A stretch of DNA of 43,464 nucleotides from Candidatus Nomurabacteria bacterium (GCA_026395935.1 JAPLXT010000056.1:1-43464); one strand, 5' to 3'. Shown: positions 11,637-35,633, counted from the stretch's first letter. The notes: a model not told the origin generated them from the sequence alone. A program made the numbers and translations.

Positions 11637-11656
11637 TTGTTTAAAAAATTTGAATT

Positions 11657-11781
11657 AATATGTTTGGAAGTGAGGTGTGAATCCTCCACTGTGCCGCAAC
11701 GGTAATGCTCGAAAGAGATGAGTCCGGTCTTAACATATTGATAATCCCGAGCAGGAGAATATATTCTTATATATTAATAAA
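11657..11781 (+). promoter_or_regulatory. Cobalamin (B12) riboswitch, compact aptamer plus expression platform
   Basis: GGAAGTGAGGTGTGAATCCTCCACTGTGCCGCAACGGTAA matches the conserved cobalamin-riboswitch core (GGTG.GAATCC...CTG.GCCGCAACGGTAA). A B12-box-like GAGTCCGG follows. P1 is AATATGTT (11657-11664) / AACATATT (11732-11739). Confidence 0.8.
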
Positions 11782-11782
11782 A

Positions 11783-11808
11783 CTTCTGCTCAAGGCAGGA
11801 GCTTTTTT
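11783..11808 (+). terminator. Riboswitch-controlled intrinsic terminator
   Basis: CTTCTGC (11783-11789) / GCAGGAG (11795-11801) stem with one G.U pair, 5-nt loop, then C+TTTTTT. An upstream AGCAGGAG (11749-11756) offers an alternative partner. Confidence 0.7.
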
Positions 11809-11819
11809 AATTTATATTT

Positions 11820-12266
11820 ATGAAAAATAAAAAAATAATTATAATAGTTGGTTTAATTATATCTTTAATTATAATTTTTTTGATTATTCACCCCTCCGTC
11901 CTACGGACACCTCCCCTTAGCAGGGGAGGAATAAATACAGAGATAGTGCCTAAGGCACTATCTGAGAAAAACGTAAAAGTTTTTCTAACAGTACAAGAGA
12001 AAAAATATGAGACGGAAGTAAAAGAAAGTGGAACGGTATTTGAGGTAATGAAAAAAATACAAGATGAAAGTAGTAGTGCAAATCCATTTAGTTTTAAATA
12101 TACAGAGAATCCAAACTTAGGAGTATTTATAAATGAAATCAATGGTTTAAAAGGAGGAGGCGATGGATATTGGATTTATTATGTGAATGGGATTGAGGCT
12201 AATGTTGGTATATCAAATTATAAAATTAAGAATGGGGATATAATCTCTTGGAAATATGAAAAATAA
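11820..12266 (+). CDS. Membrane-anchored DUF4430 (transcobalamin C-domain-like) protein
   Basis: N-terminal TM anchor, then the DUF4430 pattern ..GTVFEVMKK..GVFINEINGL..GYWIYYVNG..IKNGDIISWKY. First gene downstream of the B12 riboswitch. Confidence 0.7.
   Translation: MKNKKIIIIVGLIISLIIIFLIIHPSVLRTPPLSRGGINTEIVPKALSEKNVKVFLTVQEKKYETEVKESGTVFEVMKKIQDESSSANPFSFKYTENPNLGVFINEINGLKGGGDGYWIYYVNGIEANVGISNYKIKNGDIISWKYEK
11887..11932 (+). repeat. GC-rich hairpin element, copy 1 (in frame inside the CDS)
   Basis: TTCACCCCTCCGTCCTACGGACACCTCCCCTTAGCAGGGGAGGAAT is near-identical to 43214-43257. Contains the 8-bp hairpin CCTCCCCT (11910-11917) / AGGGGAGG (11922-11929). Encodes HPSVLRTPPLSRGG. Confidence 0.8.
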
Positions 12267-29715: not shown

Positions 29716-29734
29716 TCAATATTTAAACAAAAAC

Positions 29735-29760
29735 AAAAACTCCCCACCCGGGGAGTTTTT
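29735..29760 (+). terminator. Intrinsic terminator after rpsG
   Basis: AAAAACTCCCC (29735-29745) / GGGGAGTTTTT (29750-29760), 11-bp stem, ACCC loop, built-in T tract. Confidence 0.8.
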
Positions 29761-29766
29761 GATTTC

Positions 29767-29794
29767 TTGACAAAAGTTGAATAAGGAGTAGTTT
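29767..29794 (+). promoter_or_regulatory. Candidate promoter of island unit 1
   Basis: TTGACA (29767-29772), 16 nt, TAGTTT (29789-29794). The context GATTTCTTGACAAA recurs at 30151-30166. Confidence 0.4.
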
Positions 29795-29859
29795 TAAGGT
29801 AAATTTGAATGCGTATTGTATTTTTAGTATAAATTTCTAATTTTCTAAATTTTATAATT

Positions 29860-30063
29860 ATGTCGAAAGATCCATGTGGAGCCTGCGGGACTCCGAAATC
29901 AAAAAATCATTGGGATAAAGATGATTGCCATCACTGCTACCCAGAGAATTTTTATGAGCTAAAAACTATTCCAGCTCAAATAAAAAATTCTGGAGACATT
30001 GTAGACAGCCCAATTTTTGAAGGCCAAGGAATTGAATTTTTGGCTGAACTAACTGAGGCTTAA
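29860..30063 (+). CDS. Small 4-Cys (CxxC...CxxC) protein with acidic tail, unknown function
   Basis: 67 aa; CGAC at residues 6-9 and CHHC at 23-26. Own promoter-like and terminator signals. Confidence 0.5.
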   Translation: MSKDPCGACGTPKSKNHWDKDDCHHCYPENFYELKTIPAQIKNSGDIVDSPIFEGQGIEFLAELTEA

Positions 30064-30080
30064 TGCCTGAAGAAATTAGT

Positions 30081-30114
30081 AAAAGGATGTCAAAAGCATC
30101 CTTTTATTTTTTTT
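30081..30114 (+). terminator. Intrinsic terminator of island unit 1
   Basis: AAAAGGATG (30081-30089) / CATCCTTTT (30097-30105), 7-nt loop, then ATTTTTTTT. Confidence 0.75.
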
Positions 30115-30148
30115 ACCTACTCAACGCTATCGCGTCAGAGAGGTAAAG
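30111..30148 (+). repeat. Junction hairpin element copy 1 (core AACGCTATCGCG)
   Basis: TTTACCT (30112-30118) / AGGTAAA (30141-47) arms, CTC/GAG extension, ACGC-TATC-GCGT apex. Core at 30123-30134. Confidence 0.8.
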
Positions 30149-30157
30149 AGGATTTTC

Positions 30158-30185
30158 TTGACAAAGATACCTAAAAGCTTAAGAT
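30158..30185 (+). promoter_or_regulatory. Candidate promoter of island unit 2
   Basis: TTGACA (30158-30163), 16 nt, TAAGAT (30180-30185). Same GATTTTCTTGACAAA context as unit 1. Confidence 0.4.
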
Positions 30186-30216
30186 GAATATAAATGTTAA
30201 ATTTAAAATATAGACT

Positions 30217-30726
30217 ATGATTAGCTACATTTCCTTTAAAAAAGCTTGTAAGGAGCTTAGAATTAATCCAAATATATTTGGAAATAATCCATTAGTAGGT
30301 GGACATCCACTTGTAACTTTTGAAGAACCCTTCGATTTTGGGACAATGAATTTTCCCGAGAAACAGCTGAAGCAGATTTTGATGATTGGTCAAATTATTT
30401 ACAATTTGGAATCACAAGTTAATTTGGGCCACATGTATAATCTGACGACAAAGAAGGGAAGGGAAGATTACAGGAGAGATAGCGAAATAAAAAAGATTTT
30501 GCCCATTCTGCAAGAGTCAATTGAATTCTGGCTTGAGACCGGACTGAAGAAATGTAAGTCAGATAAAAATCTCATGTTCTGCAATGGAAGAGTTTTTGAA
30601 GTTGATCCAAAACAGACAGAGAAAATGGATGAAATGAACGATTACATGAAAGAAGTCCATCGTGATTTTCTTTACAAAGAGGCTATGTCTGAAATATCTG
30701 CCAGGGATGTGATTTTAAATGCTTAA
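30217..30726 (+). CDS. Hypothetical 169-aa protein, no recognisable family
   Basis: Uninterrupted ORF bracketed by promoter-like and terminator signals. No motif recognised. Confidence 0.5.
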   Translation: MISYISFKKACKELRINPNIFGNNPLVGGHPLVTFEEPFDFGTMNFPEKQLKQILMIGQIIYNLESQVNLGHMYNLTTKKGREDYRRDSEIKKILPILQESIEFWLETGLKKCKSDKNLMFCNGRVFEVDPKQTEKMDEMNDYMKEVHRDFLYKEAMSEISARDVILNA

Positions 30727-30743
30727 TGCATGAAAAATTTAGT

Positions 30744-30776
30744 AAAGGGATGTCAAAAGCATCCCTTTATTATTTT
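30744..30776 (+). terminator. Terminator hairpin of island unit 2
   Basis: AAAGGGATG (30744-30752) / CATCCCTTT (30760-30768). Relative to unit 1 it carries a compensatory A>G / T>C pair. The following T tract is interrupted (ATTATTTT). Confidence 0.6.
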
Positions 30777-30810
30777 ACCAGCTCAACGCTATCGCGCCAG
30801 AGAGGTAAAG
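30773..30810 (+). repeat. Junction hairpin element copy 2 (core AACGCTATCGCG)
   Basis: TTTACC / GGTAAA arms, CTC/GAG extension. Core at 30785-30796. Confidence 0.8.
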
Positions 30811-30811
30811 G

Positions 30812-30820
30812 TGGTATAAT
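30812..30820 (+). promoter_or_regulatory. Extended -10 promoter element (TGgTATAAT) for the PaaX-like gene
   Basis: TGGTATAAT ends 6 nt before the ATG at 30827, with no Shine-Dalgarno between them. This implies a leaderless or near-leaderless mRNA. Confidence 0.4.
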
Positions 30821-30826
30821 ATAATT

Positions 30827-31327
30827 ATGAGTGCAGAGAAATTAATTTTAGAATATTTGAGTGAGAATAAGAGTAAGCCTGCGATTAGATATGCAGGTGT
30901 TCGCTTAGGATTTTTAGGTTTACCAGATTTTAAGTATTATAAATACCAGACACTTGCCAATAGATGTTCTTTATTAAAAAGTGGGGGATATATAAAAGAA
31001 ACGAATGGTATTTATTTTATAACACAGAAAGGTGAAGAATTTTTAAATAAGAAAAATAAAACGGTTTTTAAAAAATTTGAATCTAGTAAAACAGATAAGG
31101 ATCCAAAAGATTTACTTTTGTTATATGATGTACCAGAAGATAAGAAGGCACATAGAGATTGGCTTAGAAAAGAGCTTGTAAATTTCAATTATATTATGAT
31201 TCAGAGAAGTGTTTGGGTGGGGCCTTCTCCATTACCGAAAGAATTTACACAATATCTAAAGGACATTGGGCTAAAGGACACAATAAAAACATTTAAATTA
31301 GAAAAAGGTTATAACTTACAAAAATAA
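30827..31327 (+). CDS. PaaX-like transcriptional regulator (wHTH plus 'DIPE...QxSVWV' module)
   Basis: N-terminal winged-helix-like segment. C-terminal LLLYDVPEDKKAHRDWLRKELVNFNYIMIQRSVWVGPSPLP matches the remembered PaaX-family pattern (FDIPE..R..LR..L...GF..LQ.SVWV.P). Confidence 0.55.
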   Translation: MSAEKLILEYLSENKSKPAIRYAGVRLGFLGLPDFKYYKYQTLANRCSLLKSGGYIKETNGIYFITQKGEEFLNKKNKTVFKKFESSKTDKDPKDLLLLYDVPEDKKAHRDWLRKELVNFNYIMIQRSVWVGPSPLPKEFTQYLKDIGLKDTIKTFKLEKGYNLQK

Positions 31328-31371
31328 CATTTTACCTGTCTAACGCTATCGCGTTTGGGAGGTAAAATGTT
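31326..31371 (+). repeat. Junction hairpin element copy 3 (core AACGCTATCGCG)
   Basis: Perfect 12-bp outer stem AACATTTTACCT (31326-31337) / AGGTAAAATGTT (31360-31371), overlapping the stop codon. Core at 31342-31353. Confidence 0.8.
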
Positions 31372-31479
31372 ATAAGGTAGATATTTATTTTAATAGGAAG
31401 GTTTTTAATTTAAAAAGTTATCCACAGTTTTGGAAGTTTTTATATTTACAAATAAAATTTTTTCTTTTATAATCTAGGA

Positions 31480-32103
31480 ATGGAAAAATTTAAAAAAGTT
31501 TTTGCCCACGTTTTAAAAATTTTAAAGTGGGCCTTTCTAATTTTAGTGGGAGTTTTTATTATTTTAGTTATAGCTAGGATTCCTCACGCATTAAATCAAC
31601 AGAAGACAGACGCTCAAATTATTAAAATTCATAATACAAAACTCACCCTTCCTGATGTAATGGGGGAGAACTTGCCACCATACCCTGGCGTAGAGGCGGA
31701 CAAGACCGTGCAGGGCATAGATGCAAACAATAATGGTATTCGTGATGATGTTGAGCTTGCTATATTTAAAGAATATCCAAATTCTGCGAAAACCCGCGCA
31801 GTACTTTTGCAGTATGCACTAACGTTGCAAATGGAGGTTATGCAACCAATAATAAATACATCTACTGCTACAGAAGTTGCAAGAGAACAAAGTAGAGCAT
31901 ATGTTTGTATTGGTGATGTTTTATCAAGGGAAAATTTAGAAAAATTTAATAAAGAGGCTGATACTTTTACTAATTTTGTAAAAGAAAGAATGTTTAATAC
32001 AGAAGAGAGAAAAAATAATAGAAGTATTTTTGTTGATAATGTAAGAAGTTATTCAAATTTAGAACAAAAATGTGATATAGATTTGTTTATTTTATCAAAT
32101 TAA
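31480..32103 (+). CDS. N-terminally membrane-anchored extracytoplasmic protein, unknown function
   Basis: One TM helix (WAFLILVGVFIILVIA), EF-hand-like loop DANNNGIRDDVE, otherwise helical-looking. TATAAT (31468-31473) lies 6 nt before the ATG. Confidence 0.5.
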   Translation: MEKFKKVFAHVLKILKWAFLILVGVFIILVIARIPHALNQQKTDAQIIKIHNTKLTLPDVMGENLPPYPGVEADKTVQGIDANNNGIRDDVELAIFKEYPNSAKTRAVLLQYALTLQMEVMQPIINTSTATEVAREQSRAYVCIGDVLSRENLEKFNKEADTFTNFVKERMFNTEERKNNRSIFVDNVRSYSNLEQKCDIDLFILSN

Positions 32104-32123
32104 ATTATTTTAATAAAATTTAT

Positions 32124-35100
32124 ATGAAGAATAAAAAATTATTTATTCTCGGTTTCTCCTTGTTGTTTTCTCTCTTATCCTTAACTGCTAATGCAGAGGG
32201 TGTATGTTCTAAGAGTGGCTATACTATACTTACTATTAATGGGATATTTACAGACAAAGAAGGTGCACTTAATAATAAAGATAGTTTACAAAGAAGTTTA
32301 GGTGCAGGATTTAAAAATGAACCTCTCAATGTTGACTATGTTTACAACCCTACTCATGCGCAAGGCTTCATAGATGTTCTAGATACTATCGCTCAAGGAT
32401 ATTTAAATCAGAAATCAGATTATGATTTAGTAGAAATGCTTAATAATGCAAGCACAAAAGTAAAGACAGAGAAACTTCTACTGGTAGGTCATTCGCAAGG
32501 GAATTTCTATGCCAATAATTTTTATGACAAAGTTGCTGATATGGAAGGCGGAGTGCCGAAGCAGTCCATCGGAGTTTATAGTGTTGCTACTCCAGCTTCA
32601 CGCGTTGCAGGTGATGGTCTATATTTAACTTCAGATACGGATAAAGTTATCGCAAAGTTAGTAGGTAGTGCTAAAAAGATAATGCCTCCGAATACCCATA
32701 TTAGTTATACTAACAATGAAGATATTTGGGGTCACGATTTTTACAAAATATATTTAGCTCATAATGGTGACAGAATTATCGGAGACCTCAAAACATCTTT
32801 AGATAAATTAAAAACAAATGATATTCAATCCTCAAATACTCCTTGTTTGTCTCCAGTAAAAATTTCTTTAGCTCACAAAATTACCGGTGCAATGCTTGCT
32901 GTTACAGATTTTTCTGCAAACACTATTATAAATAGTGTAAAACAAACAGTAACCCTTGCATATAATTTATCAAAAAAAGCAACGATATTGGTAGGGGAGA
33001 ATTTAGCAAATATTGCCAGTAAGAACCTTGCTTTTGCTGGTTCTTCAATTATGGCAGGCCCACTTTTTAGTATAAGCGATCAATCTCTCAATAATACCCA
33101 GTTTAGCAATATGCAAGTCTTAGAAGGGGTAGAGAATAATATTCAAGAAAATACCAATCTAGATACCAATATTCCTGTGGTCACTGATACAAATGTTGAG
33201 GAGACAAACTTGAATCCTACTCCAACTGATATCGAGCCTGTAAGTACTACGCCTGATTCTGGTGTATCTTCTGGTGGAAGTAGCAATGGTGGTGGAAGTA
33301 ATGATAGTGGGGAAAATAGTGATGATAATCCGACAGAAGATAATAAAGATGACAAAGTAGAGGATAAGACTGCGCCAGTAATAACTTTAGTCGGAGAAAG
33401 TGTTATCAATATAGAAGTTGGCTCGACTTATGTAGATGCTGGAGCTACAGCTCTTGATGATATAGATGAAGTGGTAGAAGTAGTCTCTTCTGGTATTGTG
33501 GATAATATAAAAGCTGGGGTTTACACTATTACTTATACGGCGACGGATAAGGCAGAGAACGTGGCGACTTTAAATCGTACCATAAATGTTATAGCTCCGA
33601 ATATTAAAGATACAACTGCGCCAGTCATAACTTTAAATGGAGAAAGTTCTGTGAATATTGAATTGAATACGACTTACGTCGACGCTGGAGCAACTGCGAC
33701 TGATGATATAGATGGAGTGGTAGAAGTTGTGACGACTGGAATTGTAGATAATACAAAAGTTGGAATTTATACTCTTACTTATACAGCGACGGATAAAGCC
33801 TTGAATATTTCGACACTAACTCGCATAGTTGAAGTGAGTCAACCTGCAATGGCTCTCTCATTTCCACCTGCATCAATGACGACTTCAGGTGATGGAGTTT
33901 ATCCGAATAGTGCAAAGAGAAAGATAGAAGAATTTCTTTACCAAATAGTTTATACAAGCAAAGACAATACTCCTCCTTATAGTGTAACGCTTCGAAGAAA
34001 GAATTTGAAAACGGGAGTTTATTTAAATGATCAACAAATGAATACAATCAACAATAGTTCCAATAGAGTTTGGCCGGCTGAATTAAGAGATGGGAATTAT
34101 GCAAATGGGGAACTGTATAGCGTTAGTAATTCTGTAGATGATGAAGGTGAGTATGAGTATTATTTCGTAATTGTTGATAAAGATTTTAATATAGTAAAAA
34201 AATTTGGAGAAAATAATAATTTGAAAATCACGGCTACTCCGGCTACAAATTATTATCCTAGCAAAGCTTCTTTTGGGACAGAGAATGGTGACGGAAAAAA
34301 TTGGCAAGTTTGGATTTTTGATAAATCAAATATTTATGATTGGTCTGATACTTATATAAATAATTATTTGCATCAGCATTTCAAAGTTCAAAATTATGAT
34401 TATATAAGTGGTGGTGTTTTGAGACTTGATCTTTTTAGTAGTGATCCAAGGAATGGTTTTGAACCTGGAGATATTACTACAGGGGGTGTATCTGAATATC
34501 GTCTTCCTGTTGATCCGCTCAGTCTTCCTGCCAGCACTCTTCATGATGTTGATATACAGTGGGATAGCACTGGTTATAATTACACTTATACTTTAGCCTC
34601 AAATGCTTCTGTCGCAAGTACAGGGCACGTGAACATTACGAATATATCCAATAATCTTTGGATAGGTTGGGGTATTTATAATCCGAAAGTCTATTGGGCT
34701 GCAAGTGTTTATGCTCCATTCTTCGAAAGTGTTTGGGTTGGGGCTCCATCTCAATTTGCAGAGGGGAGAACAGGAGGAAAATATGTATACCCAGCTCCTT
34801 CACCGATATACAAAGTTCATACGGAGCCAGTTAAGAGTGGAGAAAAATTAATAAATACTTTTGATTTTCAAAATTTGTCACCGGTAGTAAATGGAGTTGT
34901 AGATAATACTAATCATACTATTAATCTGACTGTGCCGTACGGTACAAACATTTCAAGCATGACCCCAATAATTACAATTTCAGATAAGTCGACGATTGCT
35001 CCGCAAAGTGGGGTGGCGAAAGACTTTACAAATAATGTTACTTATACCGTCACAGCAGAAGATGGAACTACACAATCTTATATAGTGACAGTTACAGTTT

Positions 35101-35483
35101 TGCCAAATCCCAATCCAGACGACCCGGACAGTACTCCTCCAACTCTCCGAAGTTATGCATTGAATAATACTCAAAGTAATATAACTATCAATCCCGTGAC
35201 TTCAAATCTTACTATTTCACTTAGGGCGAATAAAAAAGTAAACTGGCTTTCTATAAAGATTATAAAAACAGATAATGAAGATGTTTCAAAACTATATCAG
35301 TCCGATACGAAGAATTGTCGTGATGGTGAAAATTCATGTGAAAAGCTTTGGGATAAAGGGGAGCTGACTCATGGTATTTTACAAAACGGAAATTATAAAA
35401 TACGAGTACGCTTGGAAGATACCTCAGGTAAAATTTATGAGGAATATCTGCCTTATATTATTACAGTAATTGGCCAATCATAA
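32124..35483 (+). CDS. Large secreted alpha/beta-hydrolase (lipase-like) protein with Ig-like repeat domains
   Basis: Signal peptide ending ..LTANA. GHSQG nucleophile elbow (Ser codon 32493-32495) with downstream SDTD and WGHDF. Ser/Gly/Asp-rich linker, two 82-aa DUF5011-like Ig repeats, and further beta-sandwich-like C-terminal modules. Confidence 0.7.
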   Translation: MKNKKLFILGFSLLFSLLSLTANAEGVCSKSGYTILTINGIFTDKEGALNNKDSLQRSLGAGFKNEPLNVDYVYNPTHAQGFIDVLDTIAQGYLNQKSDYDLVEMLNNASTKVKTEKLLLVGHSQGNFYANNFYDKVADMEGGVPKQSIGVYSVATPASRVAGDGLYLTSDTDKVIAKLVGSAKKIMPPNTHISYTNNEDIWGHDFYKIYLAHNGDRIIGDLKTSLDKLKTNDIQSSNTPCLSPVKISLAHKITGAMLAVTDFSANTIINSVKQTVTLAYNLSKKATILVGENLANIASKNLAFAGSSIMAGPLFSISDQSLNNTQFSNMQVLEGVENNIQENTNLDTNIPVVTDTNVEETNLNPTPTDIEPVSTTPDSGVSSGGSSNGGGSNDSGENSDDNPTEDNKDDKVEDKTAPVITLVGESVINIEVGSTYVDAGATALDDIDEVVEVVSSGIVDNIKAGVYTITYTATDKAENVATLNRTINVIAPNIKDTTAPVITLNGESSVNIELNTTYVDAGATATDDIDGVVEVVTTGIVDNTKVGIYTLTYTATDKALNISTLTRIVEVSQPAMALSFPPASMTTSGDGVYPNSAKRKIEEFLYQIVYTSKDNTPPYSVTLRRKNLKTGVYLNDQQMNTINNSSNRVWPAELRDGNYANGELYSVSNSVDDEGEYEYYFVIVDKDFNIVKKFGENNNLKITATPATNYYPSKASFGTENGDGKNWQVWIFDKSNIYDWSDTYINNYLHQHFKVQNYDYISGGVLRLDLFSSDPRNGFEPGDITTGGVSEYRLPVDPLSLPASTLHDVDIQWDSTGYNYTYTLASNASVASTGHVNITNISNNLWIGWGIYNPKVYWAASVYAPFFESVWVGAPSQFAEGRTGGKYVYPAPSPIYKVHTEPVKSGEKLINTFDFQNLSPVVNGVVDNTNHTINLTVPYGTNISSMTPIITISDKSTIAPQSGVAKDFTNNVTYTVTAEDGTTQSYIVTVTVLPNPNPDDPDSTPPTLRSYALNNTQSNITINPVTSNLTISLRANKKVNWLSIKIIKTDNEDVSKLYQSDTKNCRDGENSCEKLWDKGELTHGILQNGNYKIRVRLEDTSGKIYEEYLPYIITVIGQS
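33363..33854 (+). repeat. Tandem 246-nt coding repeat (two Ig-like DUF5011-type modules)
   Basis: D(K/T)TAPVITL.GES..NIE...TYVDAGATA.DDID.VVEVV..GIVDN.K.G.YT.TYTATDKA.N..TL.R occurs twice back to back (33363-33608 and 33609-33854). Confidence 0.85.
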
Positions 35484-35531
35484 AAAGGATTTACTCAAAC
35501 AAAGGTATGTGTGGGGGAGAGAAGATTTTTA

Positions 35532-35560
35532 TTGCAAAATTTATGGATTTGTTGTATATT
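35532..35560 (+). promoter_or_regulatory. Candidate dedicated promoter for fusA
   Basis: TTGCAA (35532-35537), 17 nt, TATATT (35555-35560). Confidence 0.5.
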
Positions 35561-35633
35561 TGGGGGACAAAAGACTTGAATGTCTACCTGTAAAAATCAG
35601 GTAATTTTATTTTTAGCAACATTAATTATATAT

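What the first reader, a model, noticed from the sequence alone, without database searches (positions are those of the whole stretch)
30058..31371. Unrecognised junction element after three consecutive ORFs: long hairpin with invariant AACGCTATCGCG apex
Three copies (30111-30148, 30773-30810, 31326-31371) share an identical 12-nt core at the tip of a hairpin (ACGC/GCG(T) mini-stem, TATC loop). The core is flanked by TTTACC(T)...(A)GGTAAA arms. Arm length varies (7, 6 and 12 bp; copy 3 is AACATTTTACCT/AGGTAAAATGTT) but pairing is kept.
Copies 1 and 2 lie in a ~93-nt direct repeat, roughly nine-tenths identical by eye. The repeat begins in the last sense codon of two unrelated ORFs (GCT TAA TGC...). 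It also carries a terminator hairpin with a compensatory double substitution (AAAAGGATG/CATCCTTTT vs AAAGGGATG/CATCCCTTT).
In copies 1 and 2 the element abuts the next promoter: -35 at 30158, and extended -10 at 30812. A weak gapped echo (AAAAGGAT-TTTAC-CTCAA-AGGTA, 35483-35508) follows the 1119-aa gene.
The layout of ORF, terminator, conserved hairpin, next promoter is cassette-like. I cannot assign it to a known repeat, attC, REP or riboswitch class. Possible roles are an operator for the adjacent PaaX-like regulator, a recombination or mobilisation site, or a structured RNA.
Basis: seen in the sequence. Interest (0 to 1): 0.75.

Follow-up and report, generated by a model that had tools for sequence, protein, structure and literature searches.

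The report
Palindromic binding sites of a mini-PaaX
The three "hairpins" are copies of a conserved 36-bp palindromic DNA site that brackets the gene for a small PaaX-like DNA-binding protein in a group of ultra-small (CPR) bacteria; it is most likely that protein's own operator, and the same palindrome also turns up in frame inside reverse-transcriptase genes and at the joints of reshuffled gene cassettes.

Summary
Three exact AACGCTATCGCG cores sit at the centre of 36-bp palindromes TTTACC-N5-AACGC-TATC-GCGTT-N5-GGTAAA (30112-30147, 30774-30809, 31331-31366). The "echo" at 35483 is chance.

The element is a family. About 58 non-redundant copies were found in Paceibacteria/Nomurabacteria MAGs and metagenomes. 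None is in viral contigs and no Rfam family matches.

In every locus encoding a homologue of the 166-aa protein at 30827-31327 (wHTH plus Cas2-like domain; best fold match E. coli PaaX), one site lies 2-4 nt upstream of an extended -10 box. That box lies 6-7 nt from the ATG, so the site covers about -53 to -18. A second site follows the stop codon. This holds in three different genomic contexts, and the site sequence and spacing change together with the protein.

The variable inner "stem" is unpaired in roughly 40-55% of copies (37-54% per pair) and shows no strand-specific wobble. Copies 1 and 2 lie between a terminator and the next promoter. I therefore read it as a dsDNA operator, with the same geometry as E. 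coli PaaX's TGATTC-N27-GAATCA, and not as an RNA.

There are two twists. The site occurs as an in-frame 12-codon cassette in DGR reverse transcriptases, and sites mark rearrangement joints. A REP-like mobile reading is not excluded.

The parts
30112..30147 (.). Site S1: TTTACC TACTC AACGC TATC GCGTC AGAGA GGTAAA, a 36-bp palindromic site. It lies between the terminator of the 67-aa ORF and the TTGACA promoter of the 169-aa ORF.
30774..30809 (.). Site S2: TTTACC AGCTC AACGC TATC GCGCC AGAGA GGTAAA. It ends 2 nt before the extended -10 box of the mini-PaaX gene. If transcription starts at the ATG, the site spans about -53 to -18.
31331..31366 (.). Site S3: TTTACC TGTCT AACGC TATC GCGTT TGGGA GGTAAA. 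It starts 3 nt after the mini-PaaX stop codon; the palindrome extends to 31326-31371.
30827..31327 (+). Mini-PaaX gene (166 aa): N-terminal winged helix plus a Cas2-like (PaaX_M) domain, with no PaaX C-terminal effector domain. This is the proposed cognate binding protein.
30812..30820 (+). Extended -10 box TGGTATAAT of the mini-PaaX gene. It lies 6 nt before the ATG, so a leaderless mRNA is inferred. There is no -35 hexamer; S2 occupies that position.
30078..30108 (+). Intrinsic terminator after the 67-aa ORF. Its T-run runs into the left arm of S1.
30741..30771 (+). Intrinsic terminator after the 169-aa ORF. It is a copy of the previous one with a compensatory A>G / T>C change.
30058..30150 (+). 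Direct-repeat module 1 (last codon + stop + terminator + S1).
30721..30812 (+). Direct-repeat module 2 (last codon + stop + terminator + S2), about 89-90% identical to module 1.
30158..30185 (+). Promoter-like TTGACA-16-TAAGAT of the 169-aa ORF, 10 nt after S1. The same junction, site followed by TTTTCTTGACAAA, follows the downstream site of mini-PaaX in L012 and L021.
29860..30063 (+). 67-aa CxxC-rich ORF (cassette 1). In L021 its homologue lies after mini-PaaX, not before it.
30217..30726 (+). 169-aa ORF of unknown function (cassette 2), flanked by the two direct-repeat modules.

Best explanation
The three elements are copies of a double-stranded DNA binding site. It is a 36-bp dyad, TTTACC-N5-AACGC-TATC-GCGTT-N5-GGTAAA, made of four conserved blocks about one helical turn apart. 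I propose that it is bound by the adjacent 166-aa 'mini-PaaX', which has a winged-helix DNA-binding domain plus a Cas2-like domain, the domain a review calls PaaX's dimerisation motif.

S2 occupies the -35 region of the protein's own extended -10, apparently leaderless promoter. The protein would therefore most likely auto-repress by keeping RNA polymerase off, as E. coli PaaX does at Px. S3 (just after the stop codon) and S1 (660 bp upstream, next to the following promoter) would be auxiliary operators. They could act by cooperative binding or looping, by controlling the neighbouring promoters, or by blocking read-through.

Shown: the sites exist, are conserved, are linked to the gene, and keep a fixed geometry. 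Inferred: that the protein binds them, the direction of regulation, and any looping.

Because the same 36-bp sequence is repeated, the sites also serve, probably passively, as crossover points for reshuffling the small gene cassettes between rpsG and fusA.
For: 1. Linkage. Every homologue of the protein with sequence available on that side has a site upstream (14/14) and a site 0-60 nt after the stop codon (14/14). This holds in three different neighbourhoods: rpsG-fusA; M1 peptidase/129-aa ORF in L072; rmuC/dnaJ in L073.

2. Fixed geometry. The order is site, 2-4 nt, TGnTAnAAT, 6-7 nt, ATG in all 14 loci. S2 therefore replaces the -35 element.

3. The site changes together with the protein, and both flanking copies change together.
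- L070 (74% identity): ATTGC-TATA-GCGTT.
- L073 (65%): AAACC-TATC-GCTCT, and the two copies are 36/36 identical.
- L074 (59%): AAACC-yATA-GGTTT with N6 spacers in both copies.
- L072 (57%): outer arms CTTACT/AGTAAA in both copies.

4. The protein is a PaaX-type DNA binder.
- Pfam PaaX_M scores 9.6e-15 and there is a weak wHTH hit.
- The AF2 model has pLDDT 82.
- The best PDB fold match is E. coli PaaX 8a39, probability 0.99 over the full length. The N-terminal half matches operator-bound winged helices and the C-terminal half matches Cas2.

5. Precedent. A review (PMC9493321) reports that E. coli PaaX binds TGATTC-N27-GAATCA and represses its own promoter Px by steric hindrance. Here the site has 6-bp inverted arms separated by 24-26 bp.

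6. DNA rather than RNA.
- S1 and S2 lie after an intrinsic terminator and before the next promoter.
- The middle 5 pairs are unpaired in 37-54% of 54 sites.
- Watson-Crick complementarity in N5 is 75/210, against 66 +/- 6.6 for shuffled partners.
- G.U and A.C counts are equal, 36 versus 36.
- Centre variants are themselves palindromic (TATA, GATC, CATG).
- The orientation relative to neighbouring genes is not fixed (L005 between tRNAs; L073 and L019 have inverted copies).

7. Selection on the site. Flanking intergenic DNA is at random-level identity (20-26/45) where the flanks are not homologous, while the blocks are invariant. 55 of 58 sites are intergenic.

8. Low copy number. There are at most 3 exact copies per species-representative genome and 3 in this 43-kb window. 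This fits a small regulon.
Against: - No binding experiment exists; the protein-site pairing is inferred from linkage.
- The co-variation of site and protein is confounded with phylogeny. All genomes come from one narrow clade, with S7 protein 85-97% identical.
- Natural sites fold slightly better than chimeras of left and right halves (-13.2 versus -11.9 kcal/mol, z -3.2). Covariation also exceeds column shuffles. Some hairpin or cruciform constraint, or copy-and-paste history, is therefore not excluded.
- A constant second site directly after the stop codon is not needed for simple autorepression.
- Several features are not typical of a plain operator: sites inside a reverse-transcriptase ORF, tandem arrays with a 43-44-nt period, near-identity of the two flanking copies within a genome, and sites at rearrangement joints.
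- The Cas2 beta1 Asp (D101) is invariant, so a nuclease activity cannot be ruled out.
Confidence: 0.6

Rival explanations
1. REP/RAYT-like ('REPtron'-like) or otherwise self-propagating palindrome system. The 36-bp palindromes would be low-copy selfish or domesticated elements that are copied to new places. The wHTH-Cas2-fold protein that they bracket would be the factor that recognises them, and perhaps nicks them as hairpin or cruciform DNA. Promoter overlap would be secondary.
For: - The gene is bracketed on both sides by the element in every locus, as RAYT genes are by REPs.
- The two flanking copies are (near-)identical within a genome but differ between genomes: L073 36/36, L070 35/36, L019 35/36. 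Within-locus N5 identity is 3.17/5 against 1.94/5 between loci.
- The element is exactly a 12-codon in-frame extra segment in DGR reverse transcriptases, relative to Bordetella bRT and to close homologues that lack it.
- Two site classes (AACGC core and AAACC core) are each seen both flanking mini-PaaX genes and as RT cassettes.
- Tandem copy-number variation occurs at orthologous tRNA loci: L010 has 1 copy, L015/L064/L049 have 2.
- Sites are the junctions of rearranged flanks between the window and L021.
- Sites often sit right after stop codons or next to terminators, as REPs do.
- D101, the Cas2 catalytic-position Asp, is invariant.
Against: - Copy number is very low: at most 3 exact copies per representative genome and 3 per 43 kb.
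- There is no Y1/HUH transposase, integrase or other recombinase in the window.
- The protein's closest structural relative is a classical repressor with the same operator geometry.
- The strictly conserved site-to--10 spacing argues for a promoter function.
- Mini-PaaX identity tracks S7 identity (r = 0.56), consistent with vertical descent.
- No insertion event with target-site duplication was seen.
Confidence: 0.2
2. Structured RNA element. This would be a 3'-UTR or intercistronic hairpin acting as an mRNA stabiliser, processing site or protein-dependent terminator, possibly bound or cut by the Cas2-like (RNase-fold) domain.
For: - The hairpins are stable.
- S3 and its orthologues begin 2-4 nt after the stop codon and would be in the mini-PaaX 3' UTR.
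- The TATC orientation is co-directional with the upstream gene in most loci.
- Cas2 and VapD relatives are RNases in vitro (fold hits).
Against: - No Rfam family matches at gathering or E<=10 thresholds.
- S1 and S2 lie downstream of canonical terminators whose T-run overlaps the left arm, and upstream of the next transcription start.
- There is no U-tract after the sites.
- The middle stem is unpaired in 37-54% of copies, and there is no excess of G.U over A.C.
- The 'loop' variants are palindromic.
- Inverted copies (L073 upstream, L019 downstream) and antisense placement between tRNAs (L005) occur.
- The opposite strand folds at least as well (-14.5 versus -13.2 kcal/mol).
Confidence: 0.1
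3. The site is an operator, but for some other, unlinked DNA-binding protein that regulates mini-PaaX and a few other genes. Mini-PaaX itself would bind something else.
For: Protein-site co-variation is confounded with phylogeny. No direct binding data exist.
Against: - The sites stay with the gene in three unrelated neighbourhoods.
- The site geometry matches the known PaaX operator type.
- Autoregulation is the rule for small wHTH repressors (general knowledge).
Confidence: 0.08

Closest known systems
E. coli / Pseudomonas PaaX repressor and its operator (TGATTC-N27-GAATCA); autorepression at Px
   Same: - N-terminal winged helix plus central Cas2-like domain (Pfam PaaX_M; best fold match 8a39).
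- The operator is a pair of 6-bp inverted arms separated by roughly 2.5 helical turns (here N24-N26).
- The site overlaps the regulator's own promoter.
   Different: - The protein is 166 aa against about 305-316 aa, and lacks the C-terminal effector (phenylacetyl-CoA) domain.
- It scores 22.7 bits against a cut-off of 264.55 for TIGR02277.
- There are no paa genes nearby.
- The site has an additional conserved inner dyad, AACGC-N4-GCGTT.
- A second site always follows the gene.
- The host is a CPR bacterium, and the usual location is inside the str operon (rpsG-fusA).
REP elements with their RAYT (TnpA_REP) gene ('REPtrons')
   Same: - Short (20-40 nt) palindromes, intergenic, often after stop codons or near terminators, sometimes in tandem.
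- A single-copy gene is bracketed by the repeats.
- The repeat sequence is genome-specific.
   Different: - There is no Y1/HUH transposase fold protein.
- The repeat has no GTAG-type head.
- There are only a few copies per genome rather than tens to hundreds.
Rickettsia palindromic elements (RPEs) inserted in frame in protein-coding genes
   Same: A palindromic repeat is found in frame inside an ORF, in a permissive surface loop, as well as in intergenic DNA.
   Different: - RPEs are about 100-150 bp and high-copy (from my own knowledge).
- Here the element is 36 bp, and the only ORF seen to carry it is one loop of a DGR reverse transcriptase.
Integron attC sites / gene cassettes
   Same: Imperfect palindromes lie at the 3' end of small ORFs. 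The flanks are recombined at the sites between genomes, giving a cassette-like layout.
   Different: - There is no IntI integrase.
- There are no R/L boxes and no GTTRRRY core.
- The cassettes carry their own promoters and terminators.
- The sites are conserved in sequence, unlike attC sites.
CRISPR repeats with Cas2
   Same: The repeat is a 36-nt palindrome. The adjacent protein has a Cas2-like domain, and some homologues are annotated as Cas2.
   Different: - There is no Cas1.
- There are no spacer-sized intervals: units are about 560-660 bp apart or in arrays with a 43-44 nt period.
- TIGR01573 scores 24.4 against a cut-off of 24.5.
- No array is present in the window.

Membership tests
PaaX family transcriptional repressor (TIGR02277 / Pfam PaaX, PaaX_M, PaaX_C) | [quoted passage not shown] | tested here: met
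   Weak Pfam HTH_45 hit at residues 40-78. The AF2 model shows helix 40-52 followed by a beta-hairpin at 56-65. Foldseek hits include operator-bound wHTH domains such as CggR and MarR-type proteins.
PaaX family transcriptional repressor (TIGR02277 / Pfam PaaX, PaaX_M, PaaX_C) | Central Cas2-like domain (PaaX_M) | tested here: met
   PF20803 scores E 9.6e-15, 54.9 bits against a cut-off of 24. The C-terminal half superposes on Cas2 structures.
PaaX family transcriptional repressor (TIGR02277 / Pfam PaaX, PaaX_M, PaaX_C) | C-terminal helical effector (phenylacetyl-CoA) domain; full-length equivalog score | tested here: not met
   The protein ends at residue 166. TIGR02277 scores 22.7 bits against a cut-off of 264.55, matching only profile positions 58-139 of 279.
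PaaX family transcriptional repressor (TIGR02277 / Pfam PaaX, PaaX_M, PaaX_C) | Operator made of 6-bp inverted repeats about 27 bp apart, overlapping regulated promoters including its own | tested here: inconclusive
   The geometry matches: TTTACC-N24-GGTAAA overlaps the -35 region of the gene's own promoter in 14/14 loci, compared with TGATTC-N27-GAATCA (PMC9493321). Binding itself was not tested.
PaaX family transcriptional repressor (TIGR02277 / Pfam PaaX, PaaX_M, PaaX_C) | Association with phenylacetate catabolic (paa) genes | tested here: not met
   No paa genes are present in the 43-kb window or in the related loci.
REP / RAYT (REPtron) | RAYT gene: IS200/IS605-type Y1 (HUH) transposase homologue | tested here: not met
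   The bracketed gene is wHTH + Cas2-like. No Y1_Tnp or other transposase is present in the window.
REP / RAYT (REPtron) | The gene is flanked by the repeats | tested here: met
   A site lies on both sides in all loci with sequence available.
REP / RAYT (REPtron) | Tens to hundreds of copies per genome, often as inverted pairs (BIMEs) | tested here: not met
   There are at most 3 exact-pattern copies per species-representative genome and 3 in this 43-kb window by PWM. Degenerate copies genome-wide were not counted.
Integron attC / gene cassette | Adjacent IntI tyrosine recombinase and attI | tested here: not met
   No integrase domain is present in any window ORF.
Integron attC / gene cassette | attC architecture (R''-L''...L'-R', GTTRRRY core, variable sequence) and promoterless cassettes | tested here: not met
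   The site is sequence-conserved and has no GTTRRRY core. Both cassettes have their own promoter-like sites and terminators.
CRISPR array / Cas2 | Repeats separated by unique spacers of about 25-50 nt; Cas1 present | tested here: not met
   Spacings are 662 and 557 nt. Elsewhere the period is 43-44 nt, leaving 7-8-nt linkers. No array and no Cas1 are present in the window.
CRISPR array / Cas2 | Cas2 equivalog score | tested here: not met
   TIGR01573 scores 24.4 bits against a cut-off of 24.5, covering only profile positions 3-40 of 96.
Any Rfam RNA family | Covariance-model score at or above the gathering threshold | tested here: not met
   No match covers the sites at the gathering threshold or at E<=10.
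Intrinsic (Rho-independent) terminator | GC-rich stem-loop followed directly by a U-tract | tested here: not met
   The scan calls the neighbouring hairpins (29734-29761 and 30078-30108 on the + strand; 30743-30769 on the - strand only) but none of the three sites. The sites are followed by GAGG, GGTG and ATGT.

The most novel reading that the evidence does not exclude
The mini-PaaX and its 36-bp palindromes form a previously undescribed, low-copy, self-propagating repeat system of CPR bacteria. It would be functionally analogous to REP/RAYT, but built on a winged-helix plus Cas2-fold protein.

In this reading the protein recognises, and perhaps nicks, the palindrome. Copies are then seeded at new sites: in frame into the permissive loop of DGR reverse transcriptases, next to terminators, and as tandem arrays. 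They also mediate cassette shuffling in the rpsG-fusA hot spot.

This would be an example of a Cas2-fold protein coupled to sequence-specific palindromic repeats outside CRISPR.
Probability: 0.18. Interest if true: 0.85.

Novelty: new variant of a known kind. Interest (0 to 1): 0.55.

Why it matters
CPR/Patescibacteria have tiny genomes, very few recognisable regulators, and almost no experimentally defined regulatory sites. This finding gives a concrete and directly testable regulator-operator pair:
- a defined 36-bp site;
- a 166-aa protein;
- a conserved leaderless promoter geometry.

The pair is conserved across several hundred database homologues and usually sits inside the str (rpsL-rpsG-fusA) ribosomal operon. 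It therefore offers an entry point into transcription control in these organisms.

It also shows how a PaaX-type repressor can exist as a minimal, effector-less module.

The side observations would matter beyond this locus if they reflect mobility or regulation of a mutagenic retroelement. These are the same palindrome embedded in frame in DGR reverse-transcriptase genes (which carry several other palindrome families in the same loop), and sites at the joints of reshuffled cassettes.

Tried and rejected
1. Rfam at gathering and at E<=10 found nothing at the sites. Weak hits were terminator look-alikes.
2. The fourth 'echo' at 35483-35508 has no fold and no PWM hit, so it is rejected as chance.
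3. Hits of the search pattern in proteobacterial, actinobacterial and other GC-rich contigs had the wrong spacing or other 'loops'. I treated them as chance.
4. RNA-type covariation in the variable N5 blocks is weak (z 1.3 for Watson-Crick pairs) with no strand-specific wobble. It is not convincing as an RNA helix.
5. A viral-contig scan for the site gave 0 hits, so it is not a phage element.
6. The site does not supply a -35 element. The hexamer at the right distance from the -10 box is TCGCGC (2/6), so the idea is rejected (reading).
7. I tried to match RT cassette class to mini-PaaX site class in more genomes.
   - A third homologue search from a divergent member returned essentially the same about 120 proteins.
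   - Cluster look-ups gave protein accessions but no assembly links.
   - Only one genome (L003/L039 + L070) could be matched.
8. A search for further copies of the other RT-loop palindromes (NSAMAE and IYAMAE classes) in 0.55 Mb of fetched CPR DNA found none outside the RT genes.
9. A literature search for PaaX + Cas2, or PaaX + Patescibacteria, returned no paper in the held library.
10. PADLOC gave only weak Cas2/WH hits for mini-PaaX and nothing for the neighbouring small ORFs, so there is no known defence system.
Full report
**1. What is in the window**

The 12-mer AACGCTATCGCG occurs exactly three times, all on the + strand, at 30123, 30785 and 31342. By my own arithmetic, about 0.005 exact matches are expected in 2 x 43.5 kb.

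Each core is the centre of a 36-bp dyad, TTTACC-N5-AACGC-TATC-GCG(T/C)(T/C)-N5-GGTAAA:
- S1, 30112-30147
- S2, 30774-30809
- S3, 31331-31366

As single strands they fold well. The energies are -17.0, -10.7 and -26.5 kcal/mol, with z-scores of -5.2, -1.9 and -7.5.

S1 and S2 lie in a ~93-nt direct repeat, made of 56 nt at 89% identity plus 41 nt at 90%. The repeat begins with the last sense codon and stop (GCT TAA) of two ORFs with no detectable similarity to each other. It also contains a genuine terminator hairpin with a compensatory A>G / T>C change.

The TTGACA at 30158 and the TGGTATAAT at 30812 are present. The 'echo' at 35483-35508 does not fold (z +1.3) and is not detected by a weight matrix of the family, so I discard it.

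The gene order is: rpsL, rpsG, terminator, 67-aa ORF, terminator + S1, 169-aa ORF, terminator + S2, 166-aa PaaX-like ORF, S3, 207-aa ORF, 1119-aa surface protein, fusA. The rest of the window holds ordinary CPR housekeeping genes. There is no integrase, transposase, Cas1 or reverse transcriptase. The exact protein is NTV03_01900 of a Candidatus Nomurabacteria MAG.

**2. It is a family**

A scan of one genome per GTDB species with TACC-N(3-7)-AACGCTATCGCG-N(5-9)-GGTA gave 25 loci. All hits with the 5/7 spacing and TT...A flanks were in Paceibacteria or 'Saccharibacteria'-labelled MAGs. The hits with other spacings were in unrelated GC-rich genomes, and I treat them as chance.

A metagenome scan with the centre relaxed (TTACC-N5-AACGC-N4-GCG-N7-GGTAA) added 42 loci. 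Together these give 42 unique exact-pattern sites and about 58 non-redundant sites by weight matrix.

The centre is TATC in most sites. It is TATA in L058, L068 and L031, and GATC in L053 and L063, and in those cases the whole centre is a perfect palindrome. The consensus is cTTTACC-nnccn-AACGCTATCGCGTt-ngnnn-GGTAAAg.

No Rfam family matches, and no viral contig carries the site.

**3. Linkage to the 166-aa gene**

tblastn with the 166-aa protein found homologues at 68-83% identity in L008, L012, L014, L019, L021, L036, L054, L058, L068 and L031. I then fetched more distant homologues at 57-74% identity: L070, L072, L073 and L074.

In every locus with sequence on the relevant side there is:
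- a site upstream of the gene (14/14);
- a site 0-60 nt after its stop codon (14/14), usually 2-4 nt.

The upstream geometry is invariant: site, 2-4 nt, TGnTAnAAT, 6-7 nt, ATG. I infer a leaderless mRNA from an extended -10 promoter that has no -35 hexamer. The site occupies about -53 to -18. For S2 the dyad centre is at 30791/30792, with the ATG at 30827.

Most loci lie between rpsG and fusA. The module is unchanged in L072 (next to an M1 peptidase) and in L073 (between rmuC and dnaJ).

**4. Site and protein change together**

| Locus | Protein identity | Site |
|---|---|---|
| L070 | 74% | TTTACC AAACT ATTGC TATA GCGTT AGTTT GGTAAA on both sides |
| L073 | 65% | TTTACC AAGTC AAACC TATC GCTCT GAGTT GGTAAA; the two copies are 36/36 identical but mutually inverted |
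| L074 | 59% | AAACC-yATA-GGTTT with N6 instead of N5 spacers in both copies |
| L072 | 57% | outer arms CTTACT/AGTAAA in both copies |

(All.)

Even the 'variable' N5 blocks are more alike within a locus than between loci (3.17/5 against 1.94/5).

One caveat applies. All these genomes are close relatives, with S7 protein 85-97% identical, and mini-PaaX identity correlates with S7 identity (r = 0.56). Co-variation is therefore partly phylogeny.

Selection on the site is nevertheless clear. Non-homologous flanks are at random-level identity (20-26/45), while 12 columns of the site are invariant over 54 sequences.

**5. The protein**

- Pfam gives PaaX_M ('PaaX central Cas2-like domain', E 9.6e-15), with weak Cas2 and winged-helix hits.
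- NCBIfam PaaX scores 22.7 bits against a cut-off of 264.55. Cas2 scores 24.4 against 24.5. It is therefore neither a true PaaX nor a true Cas2.
- The family has about 600 database homologues. The top 120 are all about 166 aa and 57-100% identical.
- The AF2 model has pLDDT 82.
- The best PDB match over the full length is E. coli PaaX 8a39 (probability 0.99). Next come Cas2 structures for the C-terminal half and operator-bound winged helices for the N-terminal half.
- The protein lacks PaaX's C-terminal effector domain.
- Y100-D101, corresponding to the Cas2 beta1 Asp, and the QRSVWVGPSPLP strand are invariant.

**6. DNA site or RNA hairpin?**

Several results argue for double-stranded DNA.
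- Hairpin potential comes mostly from the four conserved blocks. Chimeras of left and right halves from different sites still fold at -11.9 kcal/mol, against -13.2 for natural sites.
- The five middle pairs are unpaired in 37-54% of 54 sites.
- Watson-Crick complementarity in N5 is 75/210, against 66 +/- 6.6 for shuffled partners.
- G.U and A.C counts are equal, 36 each.
- The opposite strand folds at least as well.
- 'Loop' variants are palindromic.
- S1 and S2 lie after a terminator whose T-run overlaps the left arm, and before the next promoter, so they should be poorly transcribed.
- No U-tract follows the sites.
- Orientation is not fixed relative to neighbouring genes.

The four blocks are centred about 10.5, 9 and 10.5 bp apart, so they lie on one face of the helix (my reading of the consensus).

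A review (PMC9493321) reports that E. coli PaaX binds TGATTC-N27-GAATCA, and that it represses its own promoter Px by steric hindrance. The geometry here is the same, with 6-bp inverted arms and N24-N26. I therefore favour a duplex operator bound by a mini-PaaX dimer or by two dimers.

The residual within-site symmetry (z -3.2; covariation above shuffles) keeps a cruciform or hairpin contribution, or a copy-and-paste history, open.

**7. Features that go beyond a plain operator**

(a) *The site occurs in frame inside a reverse transcriptase.* In L003/L039, L007 and L018 the site lies in frame in an RVT_1 ORF, reading FTxxTLSRxxGK directly before GLPLGNLTSQ.
- This RT is DGR-type. Its best PDB match is Bordetella bRT 8ub7 (E 1e-38), and homologues sit next to bAvd genes.
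- Against bRT, the RT has exactly 12 extra residues at this point, which equals 36 nt.
- Among 119 close RT homologues (at least 67% identical), this loop varies from 2 to 41 residues and carries recurrent cassettes.
- 11 homologues carry the window's site. 4 carry an AAACC-core variant with the same TTTACC/GGTAAA arms (L075), which is the class that flanks mini-PaaX in L072-L074.
- Others carry unrelated perfect palindromes, such as GCTACAAACTCTGCCATGGCAGAGTTTGTAGC in L076 and CCCCATTTACGCCATGGCTGAAATGGGG in L077.
- In all six RT genes with DNA in hand, this palindrome is the most stable hairpin of the gene.
- In the one genome where both can be seen (L003/L039 and L070 come from one contig; I estimate the two about 11 kb apart from the locus coordinates), the RT cassette and the mini-PaaX flanks are of the same class and share the left N5, AAACT.

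(b) *Tandem arrays.* Arrays with a 43-44-nt period occur (L015, L029, L034, L049, L064, L065). Copy number differs at orthologous tRNA loci.

(c) *Placement after stop codons.* Sites directly follow the stop codon of a 566-569-aa Zn-ribbon-rich protein in L004 and L065.

(d) *Rearrangement joints.* Between the window and L021 (mini-PaaX 83% identical) the flanks of the sites are recombined:
- S1 = left flank of L021-Sc (37/45) + right flank of L021-Sb (33/45)
- S2 = left flank of Sc (37/45) + right flank of Sa (40/45)
- S3 left flank = Sb left flank (36/45)

The sites are therefore the joints at which the small cassettes (67-aa, 169-aa or 101-aa ORFs, and mini-PaaX) have been reordered. The 169-aa cassette in the window is bracketed by the two 93-nt repeats, as expected for a single crossover of a circle carrying terminator + site (my inference).

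Copy number is nevertheless low. There are at most 3 exact copies per representative genome and 3 in this window. 55 of 58 sites are intergenic.

**8. Verdict**

Best explanation (about 0.6): S1-S3 are operators of the adjacent mini-PaaX.
- S2 mediates autoregulation, probably repression, of a leaderless extended -10 promoter.
- S3 and S1 act as auxiliary sites, through looping, control of neighbouring promoters or a roadblock.
- The repeated 36-bp sites act passively as recombination joints.

Main rival (about 0.2, and not mutually exclusive): a REP/RAYT-like propagating palindrome system built on a wHTH-Cas2-fold protein. An RNA element (about 0.1) and an operator for another protein (under 0.1) are less likely.

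By membership, the protein shares the two N-terminal PaaX domains but fails the PaaX equivalog test and lacks the effector domain. The element fails the defining tests for REP/RAYT, attC, CRISPR, Rfam families and intrinsic terminators.

I class it as a new variant of a known kind, namely a PaaX-type repressor-operator pair. The unusual and unexplained extra is the in-frame palindromes in DGR reverse transcriptases.

Noticed in passing
L007 13-1038; L018 1416-2423 (-); L003 3-599; L075 6285-7289; L076 10001-11011; L077 4641-5651: DGR-type reverse transcriptases of CPR bacteria lie next to bAvd genes. One loop, between IDSF and GLPLGNLTSQ, is hypervariable in length (2-41 aa among RTs at least 67% identical). 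It carries in-frame DNA palindromes of about 28-36 nt from several unrelated families. One of these families is the window's site. In each gene the palindrome is the most stable hairpin.
   Followed up: partly
L015 2440-2524; L029 254-383; L034 2515-2599; L049 91-175; L064 2156-2240; L065 203-331 and 2171-2256: Tandem arrays of 2-3 sites occur with a 43-44-nt period, about four helical turns. Copy number differs between orthologous tRNA-cluster loci: L010 has one copy, while L015, L064 and L049 have two.
   Followed up: partly
L004 3989-4022 and L065 246-331: Sites, single or in arrays, start 0-10 nt after the stop codon of homologous 566-569-aa CxxC-rich (Zn-ribbon-like) proteins in two different genomes. 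In L065 a second array lies upstream of the gene, apparently after a tandem paralogue.
   Followed up: no
window 29716-35579 and the rpsG-fusA interval of L008, L012, L014, L017, L019, L021, L070, L074: The spacer between rpsG and fusA is a hot spot for variable small genes, with ORFs of 51, 67, 82, 101, 133, 169, 178, 197, 207 and 211 aa plus a 1119-aa surface protein in the window. Their content and order differ between genomes whose S7 proteins are 85-97% identical. rpsG has its own terminator, so fusA is uncoupled from rpsL-rpsG.
   Followed up: partly
window 30812-30829, 31445-31482, 29840-29862: Several genes here appear leaderless. A -10 box ends 6-7 nt before the ATG and no Shine-Dalgarno sequence is present. 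This is conserved for mini-PaaX in 14 loci.
   Followed up: partly
window 11639-11794: An AdoCbl (B12) riboswitch (Rfam RF01482, 60.3 bits) lies immediately upstream of a DUF4430 gene (11820-12266). It sits downstream of a B12-dependent ribonucleotide reductase and an ECF S-component-like gene. This looks ordinary.
   Followed up: no
proteins P0045, P0081, P0032, P0108 (homologues of window 30827-31327): Some database homologues are annotated 'CRISPR-associated endonuclease Cas2'. The family scores 24.4 bits against the TIGR01573 cut-off of 24.5, so these names probably come from borderline hits and not from a CRISPR context.
   Followed up: partly
window 30103-30192 and 30762-30812: tblastn of the DGR RT against the window 'hits' S1 and S2 themselves (17-30 aa, E 0.09-1.1). 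The reason is that the site translates to FTxxTLSRxxGK. This is a trap for homology-based annotation.
   Followed up: yes
L003 1125-1808: A LAGLIDADG_3-domain ORF (227 aa) lies about 0.5 kb downstream of the RT gene (after an L19-like ORF) in one Paceibacterota MAG.
   Followed up: no
protein P0120: A mini-PaaX homologue (63% identical) is deposited under a 'Desulfobacterales bacterium' MAG on a 6.4-kb contig. This is likely a mis-binned CPR contig.
   Followed up: no
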